Assembly (NCBI GenBank): GCA_048941285.1
Contig: JBHLNS010000005.1
Coordinates: forward strand, 32,001 to 96,000
DNA from: Promethearchaeota archaeon
GTDB taxonomy: Archaea; Asgardarchaeota; Lokiarchaeia; Sigyniarchaeales; SOKP01
DNA: 64,000 bases
Direction of reading: 5' to 3'
This document shows, piece by piece, positions 39,928-56,349 of this stretch. Position 1 is the stretch's first letter. Every line of letters begins with the position of its first letter. A program made the position numbers and the translations under genes. The notes beneath the pieces were generated by a model, which was given only the letters and a program-made list of their open reading frames with translations, searched no databases and was not told the origin of the DNA.

Positions 39928-40237
39928 AATCATCCTTTTTCTCCCACATGAACTTGGAGGAATGACATAATTAGATTATCAAATAGTTTTAAACATATAA
40001 GGATATGATATTTTGTTTTAGATATTACATATGAATGATTTTAATAAAATTTTTTAATATTGTTATATTCTAAATCACACTAAGTTTAAAATATATTTTT
40101 CTAAGAAACTTAGGACGCAAATTAAAGCGGTTTCAATATATAATAGATATTGAATAAGTAATTCACGATAATTACGCGTTCTTGATCTTAGGAATATTTT
40201 TTAAATTATAATGAGAAAAATAAAACGGTGAGTTTAT

Positions 40238-40768
40238 GTGAGTGAAAAAGGAAAAATAATTGTAAAGGCCCTTGTGACAGGTGGGAGAGTATAAATTATC
40301 AATCACATCGATTAAGCCCCGAATGCGTCAGGAGGACCTCCTATTGGCCCAGCTGTTGGCCCGACAGGGATAAATATTAAAGATGTAGTTGATGAGATCA
40401 ACAAGCAAACTACTGTCTTTAAGGGACTAACGGTACCAGTTAGAATTGAATGTGACGCAGAAACAAAACAGTTTGAAATTTTTATTGAAACACCATCTAC
40501 AGCATCACTTTTACTTAAAGAAGTTGGTGCCGAAAAAGGAAGTTCTGCTGCTTCAGAACAAAAAATTGGTAATTTAACGCTTGAACAAATTCAAAACGTT
40601 GTTGATGGTAAAAAAGAGAAATTTTTAGAAAAGACTTATAAAGCTGCTATAAAATCAGTGTTAGGAACAGCATTATCTGTAGGTTTAACAGTTGAAGGAG
40701 AAGATCCTAGAATCATCCAAAAAAGAATTGAAAATGGAGAATACGATGATAAAATAAGAGGTGAATAA
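40238..40768 (+). CDS. rpl11: 50S ribosomal protein L11 (uL11), two exons (40238-40287, 40324-40768)
   Basis: GTG start with GGTGA SD. Spliced protein [39 protein letters not shown]...LGTALSVG (164 aa). First gene of the L11-L1-P0-P1 operon; absent from the ORF track because of two in-frame TAA codons. Confidence 0.92.
40288..40323 (+). other. 36-nt BHB/BHL-type mRNA intron in rpl11
   Basis: Central helix TGGG/CCCG, bulges AGA and AAT, exon stem TGAC/GTCA, inner hairpin AATC/GATT; stops at 40292 and 40313. Confidence 0.85.
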
Positions 40769-40774
40769 TAGAAT

Positions 40775-41503
40775 TTGAAAGTAGATGATAAATTGTTAAA
40801 AAAATCACTAAACGCTGCTATAGATTTTTCTATAGTCAAAAAAAAGGGTTTTAAAGATAAAATAAGAAAATTTGATGAATCTATTGATCTTATTATAAAT
40901 ATTAAAGATGTTAATTTAAATGATCCAAAAAACCGTATCGATAAGGAAATTATTTTATCGAATGAAATCATTGCAAATGATAAACCGAATATATGTGTGA
41001 TTGCTTCTGACGAAATATTATTAGAAGCAAAAAAATTAGGGCTTGAAACAATCGATTCAGATGGTTTGGTAAAATTAAATAATGAGGAGAAAAAATATAA
41101 GAAAAAATTTGCGAAGAAATATGATTATTTTGTTGTAGAAGATAAAATGATGAGAGATGTGGCTCGATATTTAGCAAGATTTCTTGGACCTGTTGGTAAA
41201 ATGCCAAAACCTTTCCCTACAGGATATGGTATTATTTCTAGTACAGAAGATTTAAAAACTGCTTACGAACGATATAAGAAAATTATTAGGATTCAAATGA
41301 AAAAACAACCTATTATCTTCGTTAAAATTGGGAAAAAATCGATGAACAAGGACAAATTGTTTGAAAATATGAAGACTGTAGTAAATTTTATAGCAGAACA
41401 AATGCCTCATAGGTTCAATAATTTTAAATCAATGTATCTTAAATCTACAATGGGGAAACCTGTTAAAGTAACAGAAGAATTCCTGAAAACTATTGAGGTG
41501 TGA
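40775..41503 (+). CDS. rpl1: 50S ribosomal protein L1 (uL1)
   Basis: RKFDESIDL, LGPVGKMP, KSTMGKP. Confidence 0.95.
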   Translation: MKVDDKLLKKSLNAAIDFSIVKKKGFKDKIRKFDESIDLIINIKDVNLNDPKNRIDKEIILSNEIIANDKPNICVIASDEILLEAKKLGLETIDSDGLVKLNNEEKKYKKKFAKKYDYFVVEDKMMRDVARYLARFLGPVGKMPKPFPTGYGIISSTEDLKTAYERYKKIIRIQMKKQPIIFVKIGKKSMNKDKLFENMKTVVNFIAEQMPHRFNNFKSMYLKSTMGKPVKVTEEFLKTIEV

Positions 41504-41507
41504 AGTA

Positions 41508-42404
41508 ATGATCAAAAATAAACATATACCCAAATGGAAAATAAATGAAATTAATAAATTAGTTGATTTGTTTAGAAATTACAAAAATGTTGTTGTTATT
41601 GAAGTTGCTCATATTAATGATATGCAAATTCAGACTATGCGTAAAATATTAAGAGGAAAAGCCGTATTTAGAATGTCTAAAAAATCCCTTCAGGTCCGTG
41701 CTATAGATGAATATAAAAGTGAAACCAAAAAGAAAAATTTGGATCAATTAGCAGATCACATCCCCGGTCAATCAAGTCTAGTTTTTACTAATCTTGACAT
41801 TTTTGAATTAAAAAATATATTTTTAGAAAACGAGTGGATGGTTCCTGCCAAACCTAATGAAATCACTCCAGTAGATATCTGGGTTCCTGCTGGAGACACT
41901 GGATTACCAACGGGACAAGTTATTAGTGAACTAAATATGACACTACGTTTACCTACTAGAATTATGAATGATACTATATATATTCGAGAAGATACAAGAA
42001 CACACAAAGCGGGTGATGTAGTGGATGTAAAGCAAGCAGCGGTGTTGAAAAAATTAGGAATTACACCAATAGAATCTTTGATTAAAATCCATTTTGCCTG
42101 GAGTGATGGAGAAATTATCCCCGAGGAAATATTATACATGAATATAGATCAATTTAATCAAGATTTTGCAAAGGCTTATAGAGAATCACTTGCAATTTTA
42201 TTCGAAATGCCGTTCCTCGTTGAAGAAATGACAGAAGATTATGTTCAAAAAGCGGCTTCTGAAGCTAACATATTGAATTCTATCATTTTCGGGGAAGGAC
42301 TTAAGGTACCAAAAAAAGAAGAACCCCTTAAAGAAGAAGAAAAAGAACCTGAAGAAAAAGAAGAAGAATCAGAAAGTGTGGGGATTGGTGGATTATTTGG
42401 ATAA
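41508..42404 (+). CDS. rpl10: 50S ribosomal protein L10/P0 (uL10)
   Basis: IPKWK, MRKILRG, PAGDTGL, acidic tail ending GGLFG; ATG at 41508 preferred as start. Confidence 0.95.
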   Translation: MIKNKHIPKWKINEINKLVDLFRNYKNVVVIEVAHINDMQIQTMRKILRGKAVFRMSKKSLQVRAIDEYKSETKKKNLDQLADHIPGQSSLVFTNLDIFELKNIFLENEWMVPAKPNEITPVDIWVPAGDTGLPTGQVISELNMTLRLPTRIMNDTIYIREDTRTHKAGDVVDVKQAAVLKKLGITPIESLIKIHFAWSDGEIIPEEILYMNIDQFNQDFAKAYRESLAILFEMPFLVEEMTEDYVQKAASEANILNSIIFGEGLKVPKKEEPLKEEEKEPEEKEEESESVGIGGLFG

Positions 42405-42473: not shown

Positions 42474-42764
42474 ATGGAAAGTATATATGCAGCTTTATTA
42501 CTCCACAAAGCTGGAGGTAAAATTAACGAAGCAAATGTAGAAAAGGTATTGACAGCGGCAGGCGCTAAAGTTGATAAATCAGAAATCTCAAAGCTAATTG
42601 CTGGTTTAAAACAGACAAAGATTGAGGATATTATAAAATCTGCTAGCGCTATGCCCGCAATTGCTGCTCCAAAAGAAGCTCCAGCAGAGAAGAAAAAAGA
42701 GGAAAAGAAGAAAAAAGAAGAACCCGAGGAAGAAGAGCCCACAGGGATTGGAAGTTTGTTTTAG
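42474..42764 (+). CDS. rpl12: ribosomal stalk protein P1 (archaeal L12)
   Basis: MESIYAALLLH, Ala-rich hinge, acidic tail ending GSLF. Confidence 0.95.
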   Translation: MESIYAALLLHKAGGKINEANVEKVLTAAGAKVDKSEISKLIAGLKQTKIEDIIKSASAMPAIAAPKEAPAEKKKEEKKKKEEPEEEEPTGIGSLF

Positions 42765-53621: not shown

Positions 53622-53763
53622 TGCATATCAACTTATTCAATAATTTTTTATTAATTAACTAAAGTCTCTTTTTATTATTTCAATTATAAATTAAAAAGAT
53701 AAAAATTTTTATCTTTTTTCTGATTTAATTAGTTTATAATAATTAATCATTTTCAATTTACTT

Positions 53764-53909
53764 GGGCCATTAGCTCAGATTGGTTAACAAGTTTTTATAT
53801 GCTTGGTCAACAAGCGCAGGTCTTATAAATGACTATCGGACATACAGTAAATAGAACTGTCCGATAAAGTAAAAACCTGAGATCCGGGGTTCAAATCCCC
53901 GATGGCCCA
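53764..53909 (+). tRNA. tRNA-Ile(UAU) with two introns (53787-53811 in the D-loop; 53829-53874 at 38/39)
   Basis: Acceptor GGGCCAT/ATGGCCC, A73, anticodon stem CAGGT/ACCTG with loop CT-TAT-AA, T-arm CGGGG-TTCAAAT-CCCCG; 75 nt mature, CCA not encoded. Confidence 0.85.
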
Positions 53910-54066
53910 TTTTCAATAGATTTTTTAAGAAATAATTTTGATATTTAGACTAATATTCGTGAAACATCTATTTTACGCTTATTCATATATACCTTAAGGA
54001 TATGTCTAGATATATTTGCATAATATTATTGATTAAAATTAGGAGTAAAAATATTAGAAAGAAGTT

Positions 54067-56256: not shown

Positions 56257-56349
56257 TGGCGGCCCTCGAGGGGAATCGAACCCCTACCCCTCCGCAGGAT
56301 AACTGGGTTTGAAGCCCAGCGTCAGAGACCACTCCAACCGTCAAGGGCC
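56257..56349 (-). tRNA. selC: tRNA-Sec (anticodon UCA), 9/4 fold, CCA encoded
   Basis: 9-bp acceptor GGCCCTTGA/TCGAGGGCC, 7-bp D stem, CTGGG-CTTCAAA-CCCAG anticodon arm, long variable arm, 4-bp T stem, GCCA end; directly upstream of SepSecS. Confidence 0.95.

What the first reader, a model, noticed from the sequence alone, without database searches (positions are those of the whole stretch)
40238..40768. Ribosomal protein gene rpl11 interrupted by a 36-nt stop-containing BHB intron
Seen: rpl11 reads ...ALVTGG, then [10 protein letters not shown], then [14 protein letters not shown]... in the same frame. The insert boundaries fold as TGGG-AG^A-GT...GC-CCCG-AA^T, with an exon-exon stem TGAC/GTCA. 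Cleavage after the second bulge nucleotide removes exactly 36 nt (40288-40323) and gives [11 protein letters not shown], matching the conserved uL11 spacing GGxAxxGPP. No downstream start could rescue the protein, and the rest of the gene is undecayed. Inference: expression requires splicing by the tRNA endonuclease. As this is the first gene of the L11-L1-P0-P1 operon, splicing could also tie ribosomal protein output to tRNA-processing capacity.
Basis: partly seen in the sequence, partly recalled or inferred. Interest (0 to 1): 0.95.

Follow-up and report, generated by a model that had tools for sequence, protein, structure and literature searches.

The report
Mini-intron splits archaeal ribosomal protein gene
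The only gene for ribosomal protein uL11 in this Lokiarchaeal (Asgard) genome is interrupted by a 36-base insert with two stop codons that has the shape of a tRNA-type intron and must be cut out of the messenger RNA, a kind of splicing shown so far for a single archaeal protein gene.

Summary
rpl11 (40238-40768, +) carries a 36-nt insert (40288-40323) with two in-frame TAA codons. It is the only uL11 gene in a 94%-complete genome. DNA contigs from three studies bridge the insert.

The insert has a 4-bp helix between two 3-nt bulges plus an inner stem, which is a relaxed bulge-helix-bulge (BHB) motif. Cutting after the second bulge base restores the frame for all length variants (28, 36, 37 nt).

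Relatives carry two more BHB mini-introns in the same gene (35/36/31 nt and 28 nt, mostly frame-shifting). One genome has all three. Exons are under strong purifying selection (dN/dS 0.04-0.16).

The genome encodes two EndA paralogues, consistent with an alpha/beta enzyme, and RtcB. It also has similar introns in gyrB (53 nt) and RNA polymerase A' (30 nt).

No RNA data were available, so splicing itself is inferred. The proposed regulatory coupling to tRNA processing is untested.

Searched literature reports such splicing inside a coding sequence only for crenarchaeal cbf5. This is a new member of a known kind, in Asgard archaea.

The parts
40227..40232 (+). GGTGAG, Shine-Dalgarno-like motif 5 nt upstream of the GTG start
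   Evidence: Read. The same GGTGA(G) precedes the start in several orthologues. Its function is inferred.
40238..40287 (+). rpl11 exon 1 (GTG start; encodes [16 protein letters not shown] plus the first two bases of the Ser codon)
   Evidence: Orthologues align from the start codon.
40275..40278 (+). UGAC, 5' half of a short exon-exon stem (pairs with 40327-40330)
   Evidence: In the MFE fold. 3 of its 4 pairs are invariant; the fourth is unpaired in 8 of 10 orthologues.
40282..40285 (+). UGGG, exon strand of the 4-bp central helix H of the BHB motif
   Evidence: Pairs with CCCG at 40318-40321. H is paired in 40 of 40 cells across 10 orthologues, with one both-sided change U-A to A-U.
40286..40288 (+). 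5' bulge AGA; predicted cut between 40287 and 40288
   Evidence: Sequence. This register reproduces the orthologues' Ser codon.
40288..40323 (+). 36-nt BHB mini-intron with in-frame TAA at 40292-40294 and 40313-40315
   Evidence: Absent from 52 of 62 distinct orthologous 5' regions, of which L065 is cut by a contig end and may carry it, and present in 10. Bridged by DNA contigs of three runs. Single copy in the genome.
40289..40294 (+). 5' strand of inner stem h' (GUAUAA), pairs with 40312-40317 (UUAAGC): G-C, U.G, A.A mismatch, U-A, A-U, A-U
   Evidence: Sequence. Helix 3 has 80.4% of cells paired, with one both-sided change.
40318..40321 (+). CCCG, intron strand of central helix H
40322..40324 (+). 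3' bulge AAU; predicted cut between 40323 and 40324
   Evidence: Sequence. The register is fixed by the orthologues.
40324..40768 (+). rpl11 exon 2 (third base of the Ser codon, then ASGGPPIGP... to TAA)
   Evidence: Pfam Ribosomal_L11_N (E 3.4e-17) and Ribosomal_L11 (E 3.8e-17). dN/dS is 0.06-0.15 against orthologues.
40775..41503 (+). rpl1 (uL1), next gene of the cluster
   Evidence: Pfam Ribosomal_L1, E 2.4e-43.
41493..42404 (+). rplP0 (uL10/P0)
   Evidence: Pfam Ribosomal_L10 and RL10P_insert.
42474..42764 (+). rplP1 (acidic stalk protein P1)
   Evidence: Pfam Ribosomal_60s, E 1e-13.

Best explanation
Bases 40288-40323 are a bulge-helix-bulge (BHB) mini-intron inside the coding sequence of the single uL11 gene of a Lokiarchaeal (Promethearchaeota, Asgard) genome. 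In the transcript, four exon bases (UGGG) pair with the last four bases before the 3' bulge (CCCG). This helix is flanked by two 3-nt bulges and continued by an inner intron stem, giving a relaxed HBh' motif. The archaeal splicing endonuclease is expected to cut after the second base of each bulge. In this genome it is two EndA paralogues, consistent with an alpha2-beta2 enzyme. RtcB is expected to join the exons, creating the Ser codon AGU and an open frame that reads ...[16 protein letters not shown].... Shown here: the insert, its structure, its conservation and covariation, the exact match of the predicted product to intron-less orthologues, purifying selection on the exons, and the presence of the enzymes. 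Inferred: cleavage and ligation themselves. The intron is one of a set. The same gene has two further BHB intron sites in sister species, and in this genome gyrB and the RNA polymerase A' gene carry the same kind of insert.
For: 1. Predicted product: intron-less orthologues in the genus read [27 protein letters not shown].
2. One rule fits all lengths. Cutting after the second base of each 3-nt bulge flanking a 4-bp helix restores the frame for site-A inserts of 28, 36 and 37 nt. It also does so for site-B inserts of 31, 35 and 36 nt and site-C inserts of 28 nt. Most of these lengths are not multiples of 3, so stop-codon readthrough cannot rescue them.
3. Structure counts:
- Site A: H paired in 40/40 cells, one U-A to A-U swap, 89.2% of all cells paired against 27-61% when the partner is slid.
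- Site B: 91.9% against 23-57%, 6 pairs with both-sided changes, 0 of 500 shuffles reach the score.
- Site C: 93.0% against 26-48%, H paired in 44/44 cells.
- L060 (site B) is a perfect hBHBh' motif, and L061 (site A) has an 8-bp inner stem.
4. Chance: the motif occurs at about 0.0009 of positions for a fixed length.
5. The gene is needed and alive. It is the only match to both uL11 Pfam domains in a 94%-complete genome. dN/dS is 0.04-0.16 among intron-bearing genes, with no stop in the 127 codons after site C in any sequence.
6. The DNA is real.
7. Machinery: two EndA-family genes. One aligns full-length to the A. pernix EndA chain 3p1z_B (E 9e-35) and keeps the Tyr/His/Lys positions. The other lacks the His. 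There is one RtcB.
8. tRNA introns called by aragorn in this genome show the same architecture at the called boundaries, for example tRNA-Asp, tRNA-Ser and tRNA-Gln.
9. Other genes in this genome:
- gyrB has a 53-nt frame-shifting insert. Removing it gives ...LEGV|RRRPAMYIG, contiguous in 13 of 20 genus loci. 5 loci carry the insert and 2 were unreadable.
- rpoA' has a 30-nt insert with two stops, H GGGC/GCCU and a 7-bp inner stem. Removing it gives GHFGH|IELARPV, contiguous in 21 of 24 genus loci.
Against: No RNA evidence: no listed run is on record as RNA, so no junction read, circular intron or peptide was seen. The single-sequence fold is no more stable than shuffles. The outer exon-exon helix does not abut the central helix, so the motif is relaxed, and the inner stem of this copy has an A.A mismatch. 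Cleavage therefore depends on a broad-specificity EndA, which is inferred from homology only. Covariation is modest for site A (2 pairs with both-sided changes; 11 of 500 shuffles reach that count), and the sequences are close kin. A fourth insert found by the same census (GH57 gene) does not show a canonical BHB at the needed register. Not every such insert in this genome is therefore explained by the rule.
Confidence: 0.88

Rival explanations
1. The insert is removed or skipped at the RNA or translation level, but not by EndA/RtcB. Candidates are an unknown nuclease and ligase, or ribosomal bypassing (hopping) over the 36 nt as in phage T4 gene 60.
For: No direct evidence of EndA cleavage exists. 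The motif is relaxed. The GH57 insert lacks a canonical BHB at the right register, so another route may exist in this genome.
Against: The BHB cut rule predicts the exact junction for seven length classes at three rpl11 sites, and also in gyrB and rpoA'. No matching take-off and landing codons flank the insert; the requirement for such codons is recalled knowledge about gene 60. Bypassing would not explain the conserved 4-bp helix between two 3-nt bulges or the compensatory changes.
Confidence: 0.06
2. rpl11 is a pseudogene, or a gene recently broken by an insertion, and the organism lacks functional uL11 or the bin misses the real copy.
For: The frame is closed by two stops. The genome is a 101-contig assembly, 94% complete, so a second copy could be unassembled.
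Against: Only one match to either uL11 domain was found. The insert is conserved at the same site in 10 distinct genomes, with exons at dN/dS 0.06-0.15 and dS up to about 1.6. That would not hold for a dead gene. 28 of 62 distinct orthologues carry at least one such insert, and none shows other damage.
Confidence: 0.03
3. The insert is an assembly or sequencing artefact, or it is excised at the DNA level in the cells that express the gene.
For: The genome is metagenome-assembled. Contigs cannot show rare DNA variants (note).
Against: Contigs from three runs of three studies bridge the insert with 0-1 differences. No joint skipping 40288-40323 was listed (table 5). The only joined forms seen were loose ends on records with about 5 other letters, which are intron-less relatives. 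Homologous inserts are present in many independent assemblies.
Confidence: 0.01

Closest known systems
cbf5 pre-mRNA BHB intron of Crenarchaeota (Watanabe 2002; Yoshinari 2006; Yokobori 2009, PMC2738675: passages read)
   Same: A short intron inside a protein-coding sequence, bounded by a (relaxed) BHB motif. It occurs in organisms with a hetero-oligomeric EndA and shows lineage-specific presence and absence. Some cbf5 introns are also 36 nt (passage).
   Different: The gene (ribosomal protein uL11, not a pseudouridine synthase) and the phylum (Asgard/Promethearchaeota) differ. There are three alternative sites within about 60 nt of one gene, up to three introns in one gene, and very patchy distribution among close relatives. 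cbf5 of this genome is a single open frame with no intron. cbf5 splicing was shown experimentally; this one was not.
BHB intron in the 5' UTR of HVO_1309 mRNA, Haloferax volcanii (Schwarz et al. 2020, PMC7714728: passages read)
   Same: An mRNA is a substrate of the tRNA splicing endonuclease.
   Different: That intron lies in the untranslated leader and does not interrupt the reading frame. It was confirmed in vivo and in vitro.
Non-canonical tRNA introns of Asgard and Thermoproteales archaea (PMC5829648; PMC11291895; bioRxiv 10.64898/2026.10.13.758758, abstract and one passage)
   Same: Same motif and presumably the same enzymes. Asgard archaea are reported to have (alpha-beta)2 EndA with the L1 loop and very intron-rich tRNA genes. 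In this genome aragorn calls introns in 19 of 31 tRNAs.
   Different: The host RNA is a messenger, so the intron must be removed before or during translation, and the exon bases of the motif are also constrained by coding.
Unconventional HAC1/XBP1 mRNA splicing in eukaryotes (Ire1 cut, tRNA ligase/RtcB joining; recalled, and named in the abstract of PMC8718801 listed)
   Same: Spliceosome-independent, protein-catalysed removal of a short intron from an mRNA. The reading frame changes or opens, and a tRNA-type ligase does the joining.
   Different: A different nuclease (Ire1 rather than EndA) and a different RNA motif are used, and the splicing is a regulated stress response. No regulation is shown here.
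Inteins and homing introns in conserved motifs of essential genes (recalled)
   Same: The inserts sit in the most conserved motifs of essential genes (uL11 N-terminus, GyrB, RNA polymerase A') with patchy distribution among relatives.
   Different: Removal is at the RNA level, the inserts are only 28-53 nt, and there is no encoded endonuclease or protein-splicing domain.

Membership tests
Archaeal BHB intron (substrate of splicing endonuclease EndA) | Two 3-nt bulges on opposite strands separated by a 4-bp helix | tested here: met
   UGGG/CCCG lies between AGA and AAU. H is paired in 40/40 cells over 10 orthologues.
Archaeal BHB intron (substrate of splicing endonuclease EndA) | At least one flanking helix (h or h') stacked on the central helix; both in the strict hBHBh' form | tested here: met
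   The inner stem h' has 5 of 6 pairs in this copy, and 80.4% of cells are paired across orthologues. The outer helix h is not contiguous (3 and 5 unpaired bases), so only the relaxed HBh' form is met. The strict form is met by relatives at site B (L060).
Archaeal BHB intron (substrate of splicing endonuclease EndA) | Cuts after the second base of each bulge give the functional mature RNA | tested here: met
   The predicted junction equals the intron-less orthologues' sequence, for inserts of 28, 36 and 37 nt at this site. The position of the cut within the bulge is recalled knowledge. It was checked against aragorn-called tRNA introns of this genome (9 of 18 tested have a 4/4 helix within 3 nt of the called boundary).
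Archaeal BHB intron (substrate of splicing endonuclease EndA) | Structure maintained by compensatory change | tested here: inconclusive
   Site A has 2 pairs with both-sided changes (11 of 500 shuffles reach this). Sites B and C are clearer. The sequences are close kin, so the shuffle controls overstate.
Archaeal BHB intron (substrate of splicing endonuclease EndA) | Host encodes an EndA able to cut relaxed motifs, and an RtcB ligase | tested here: met
   Two EndA-family genes are present (PF01974; TIGR00324 above cut-off for both). One aligns to the A. pernix EndA chain 3p1z_B over its whole length, including the loop region. RtcB scores E 1.6e-170. Broad specificity is inferred from homology and from PMC5829648.
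Archaeal BHB intron (substrate of splicing endonuclease EndA) | Cleavage and exon ligation observed in RNA | not testable with these tools
   No RNA run was listed.
Ribosomal protein uL11 | N-terminal and RNA-binding Pfam domains above the curated cut-offs | tested here: met
   PF03946 62.4 bits (cut-off 32.9; model positions 10-58 in exon 2) and PF00298 62.9 bits (cut-off 21.4). Model positions before about 8 lie in exon 1.

The most novel reading that the evidence does not exclude
In a genus-level clade of Lokiarchaeia (Asgard archaea), BHB mini-introns behave as small selfish or mobile elements. They repeatedly enter and leave the most conserved motifs of essential protein-coding genes. There are three sites in rpl11, one in gyrB, one or more in RNA polymerase A', and a non-canonical insert in a GH57 gene. 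EndA/RtcB splicing of messenger RNA would then be a routine part of gene expression in close relatives of eukaryotes. The starred sister pairs that differ in intron content would reflect recombination-driven gain and loss at conserved flanks.
Probability: 0.55. Interest if true: 0.9.

Novelty: new member of a known kind. Interest (0 to 1): 0.8.

Why it matters
The papers searched here report protein-catalysed splicing inside an archaeal coding sequence for one gene only, cbf5 of Crenarchaeota. Passages from a 2020 paper say so, and the reference list of a 2025 paper still cites only the cbf5 work.

This report adds a ribosomal protein gene, and in the same genome a gyrase gene and an RNA polymerase gene. 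[quoted passage not shown] Several things follow if the reading holds:
- Gene callers will annotate these essential genes as truncated or as pseudogenes, which affects marker-gene phylogenies and completeness estimates that use uL11, GyrB and RpoA'.
- mRNA and tRNA maturation share one enzyme pair in these cells.
- The system has many natural presence/absence pairs, so it can be used to ask how BHB introns arrive and leave. A 2026 preprint on Asgard tRNA introns calls this question open (abstract).

The intron is short and sits near the 5' end of the first gene of the stalk operon, so it is easy to test by RT-PCR or in vitro cleavage.

Tried and rejected
1. Single-sequence folding as evidence. 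The fold contains the proposed helices but is no better than shuffles, so I relied on comparison instead.

2. Rfam (gathering) and ARAGORN on the window found only tRNA-Sec. No family covers the insert.

3. RNA evidence. No RNA holder was listed among 20 runs. The one read-laying run was used on DNA contigs.

5. A motif-plus-ORF scan of the whole genome for further mRNA introns.
- It gave 97,764 raw candidates, then 16,908 after a start-codon filter, and 112 loci in the last listing.
- Nearly all were gene junctions or antisense frames.
- Only rpl11 and gyrB were convincing. One hit looked like a selenocysteine TGA in an MvhD-like gene (that name is my recollection).
- The scan is both noisy and lossy and gives no count.

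6. A first DNA-level gapped alignment to catalogue inserts was too noisy. I replaced it with peptide anchors.

7. Comparative census.
- All stop-to-stop ORFs of 70 aa or more of G022's single contig were searched against G000.
- Part 1 had 571 ORFs with a hit. Parts 2-6 had 2,241 ORFs with a best hit of 50% identity or more.
- 41 rows were flagged. rpl11 was recovered (sense and antisense), and GH57 and rpoA' were new.
- The rest were ordinary indels, upstream non-coding sequence or shadow ORFs. Three of the 24 rows of part 1 were inspected in detail. The other flagged rows were judged from the printed context only.
- The census misses introns shared by both genomes, genes absent from G022 (gyrB) and very short exons.

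8. GH57 insert. No canonical BHB sits at the register that restores the protein. It is left unexplained.

9. Intron copies elsewhere in the genome. blastn-short found only the introns themselves, so there is no sign of a repeat family.

10. cbf5 of this genome has no intron.

11. Literature. Searches found no report of BHB introns in Asgard protein-coding genes. The library holds only CC-licensed PMC papers and bioRxiv, and supplements were not available. The supplementary tables of the Asgard tRNA-intron papers could bear on this.

12. The regulatory-coupling idea was not testable.

Full report
**What is there.** The + strand of the window carries a gene that starts with GTG at 40238 and ends with TAA at 40768. 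Translated in one frame it reads [16 protein letters not shown], then [10 protein letters not shown], then [20 protein letters not shown]... to the end. The two stops are TAA at 40292-40294 and 40313-40315.
- Downstream of the insert, the protein matches both Pfam domains of ribosomal protein uL11 above their cut-offs.
- The next three genes are uL1, P0 and P1.
- No ATG/GTG/TTG ORF of 40 aa or more exists in the uL11 frame after the insert.

**Is the DNA real, and is this the only copy?**
- The window lies in a 3.55-Mb, 101-contig genome that is 94% complete. Each of the two uL11 domains has exactly one match in it, at this locus.
- Contigs of three public DNA runs from three studies bridge the insert with 0, 1 and 0 differences (records 2, 16 and 27). 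One of these runs may be the source sample.
- No joint skipping the 36 nt was listed.
- No run on record as RNA holds the region, so expression could not be examined.

**What the relatives show.** A search with exon 2 found the gene in 39 of 41 related genomes. Record titles from a second collection place the clade in Promethearchaeota/Lokiarchaeia, that is, Asgard archaea.
- Intron-less orthologues of the same genus read ...[27 protein letters not shown]....
- I compared 62 distinct 5' regions: 56 close relatives and 6 from other families of the order. Four further loci lacked the anchors.
- Inserts occur at three sites:
  - Site A (GG^S) in 10 sequences, at 28, 36 or 37 nt.
  - Site B (PPI^GP) in 13 sequences, at 31, 35 or 36 nt.
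  - Site C (GIN^IKD) in 12 sequences, at 28 nt.
- 28 of the 62 carry at least one insert. Two carry all three. The six sequences from other families carry none.
- One more sequence (L065) is cut by a contig end inside what looks like a site-A insert.
- Most lengths are not multiples of three, so these genes cannot be read without removing the insert.

**Structure.** In this copy, UGGG (40282-40285) pairs with CCCG (40318-40321).
- The helix is flanked by the 3-nt bulges AGA and AAU.
- It is continued inward by a 6-position stem with one A.A mismatch.
- The outer exon-exon helix UGAC/GUCA exists but is separated from the central helix by unpaired bases. The motif is therefore the relaxed HBh' form.
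- The single-sequence fold is no more stable than shuffles (z = +0.61) and proves nothing alone.

Across orthologues the picture is clearer:

| Site | Central helix | All cells paired | When partner is slid | Other |
|---|---|---|---|---|
| A | 40 of 40 cells, one U-A to A-U swap | 89% | 27-61% | |
| B | | 92% | 23-57% | six pairs changed on both sides; no shuffle reaches the score |
| C | 44 of 44 cells | 93% | 26-48% | |

- One relative at site B has a perfect hBHBh' motif, and one at site A has an 8-bp inner stem.
- Cutting after the second base of each bulge gives the orthologues' reading frame for every length class. I recall this cut position from the literature. I also checked it on aragorn-called tRNA introns of this genome.
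- A 4/4 helix plus an inner stem of at least 5/6 pairs occurs at about 0.09% of positions for a fixed length in this genome. Finding it at the required register in several independent inserts is far beyond chance.

**Is the gene alive?** Between intron-bearing genes, dN/dS over the 127 codons after site C is 0.04-0.16, with dS up to about 1.6. No sequence has a stop there. A dead gene would not look like this.

**Machinery.**
- The genome has two EndA-family genes of about 200 aa.
- One aligns end to end with the Aeropyrum pernix EndA chain 3p1z_B. It keeps the Tyr, His and Lys that I recall as the catalytic triad, and has no deletion in the loop region.
- The other lacks that His and matches a beta-subunit model only weakly.
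- This fits the (alpha-beta)2 type, which the literature links to relaxed BHB motifs, to cbf5 pre-mRNA splicing and to Asgard archaea (PMC5829648, passages).
- There is one RtcB.
- Aragorn calls introns in 19 of 31 tRNA genes.

**Beyond rpl11.** A noisy motif-plus-ORF scan and a comparative census against the single-contig relative G022 found further inserts in this genome.
- **gyrB (G000:C66, minus strand).** It carries a 53-nt frame-shifting insert with H GGCG/CGCU, bulges UAA and AAA and a 5-bp inner stem.
  - Removing it gives ...LEGV|RRRPAMYIG....
  - Of 20 genus loci, 5 carry the insert, 13 are contiguous and 2 could not be read. All 10 loci from other families are contiguous.
  - One orthologue shows a compensatory change in the inner stem.
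- **RNA polymerase A' (G000:C1).** It carries a 30-nt insert with two stops, H GGGC/GCCU and a 7-bp inner stem.
  - Removing it gives ...GHFGH|IELARPV....
  - 21 of 24 genus loci are contiguous. Two others carry longer inserts (65 and 85 nt) at that place.
- **GH57 gene.** It carries a 30-nt in-frame insert with a stop, shared with one other species. I could not place a canonical BHB at the needed register. This one stays unexplained.
- The inserts have no other copies in the genome.
- cbf5, the classical host gene, is uninterrupted here.

**Dynamics.** On a maximum-likelihood tree of the 390 nt after site C (61 rows, L088 left out as truncated), several well-supported sister pairs with short branches differ in intron content. 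Examples are none versus B, none versus C, A versus C, and C versus A+B.
- The tree rests on one short gene that may itself recombine, so I read this only as a sign of fast turnover or recombination.
- It is not an order of events.

**Comparison with what is known.** The closest case is the cbf5 pre-mRNA intron of Crenarchaeota.
- A 2009 paper states that no other archaeal pre-mRNA splicing was confirmed (PMC2738675, passage).
- A 2020 paper says cbf5 is the only reported coding case and adds a 5'-UTR intron in Haloferax (PMC7714728, passages).
- The reference list of a 2025 EndA paper still cites only the cbf5 work.
- Papers on Asgard tRNA introns do not mention protein genes in the text I could search.
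- Eight full-text searches found no report of such introns in Asgard protein genes.
- The library is limited and supplements were closed.

**Verdict.**
- The mechanism is the known BHB/EndA/RtcB pathway applied to a new host gene in a new phylum, so this is a new member of a known kind.
- It is unusually rich: three sites in one gene and further genes in the same genome.
- Splicing itself, and any regulatory role, remain to be shown.

Noticed in passing
G000:C66:35060-35112 (minus strand; outside the window): gyrB is interrupted by a 53-nt frame-shifting BHB-type insert between ...LEGV and RRRPAMYIG.... 5 of 20 genus loci carry it, 13 are contiguous and 2 were unreadable.
   Followed up: yes
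G000:C1:98368-98397 (plus strand; outside the window): The RNA polymerase A' gene carries a 30-nt insert with two stops inside GHFGH^IEL. It has a textbook central helix, 3-nt bulges and a 7-bp inner stem. G024 and G021 have 65 and 85 extra nt at that place.
   Followed up: partly
G000:C70:13809-13838 (plus strand; outside the window): A GH57 glycoside hydrolase gene has a 30-nt in-frame insert with TAA, shared with G014. The inner hairpin covaries, but no canonical BHB fits the register that restores the protein.
   Followed up: partly
Loci L016-L026, L045-L085 (rpl11 orthologues): There are two further mini-intron sites in rpl11 of sister species: PPI^GP at 31/35/36 nt and GIN^IKD at 28 nt. 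G005 (L026) and L081 carry all three introns within about 60 nt of coding sequence.
   Followed up: yes
window 56257-56349 (-): tRNA-Sec (anticodon TCA) was found by ARAGORN and by Rfam RF01852 (59.4 bits), so the organism probably uses selenocysteine. One hit of my genome scan (G000:C43, MvhD-like by recollection) looked like a Sec TGA and not an intron.
   Followed up: no
window 53763-53910 (+) (G000:C52:85763-85910): aragorn in intron mode calls a tRNA-Asp(GTC) with a 58-nt intron here. The default tRNA tool did not list it, and the call has weak flanking helices in my check.
   Followed up: no
G000:C70:1987-2211 (-) and G000:C68:24269-24508 (+): There are two separate EndA-family genes of about 200 aa. 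One keeps the catalytic Tyr/His/Lys and the other lacks the His, which fits an alpha/beta heterotetramer.
   Followed up: partly
rpl11 gene tree: Some record titles label near-identical rpl11 sequences as Odin-, Thor-, Hermod- or Hodarchaeota although they nest inside the Promethearchaeota clade. These are probably mislabelled bins.
   Followed up: no
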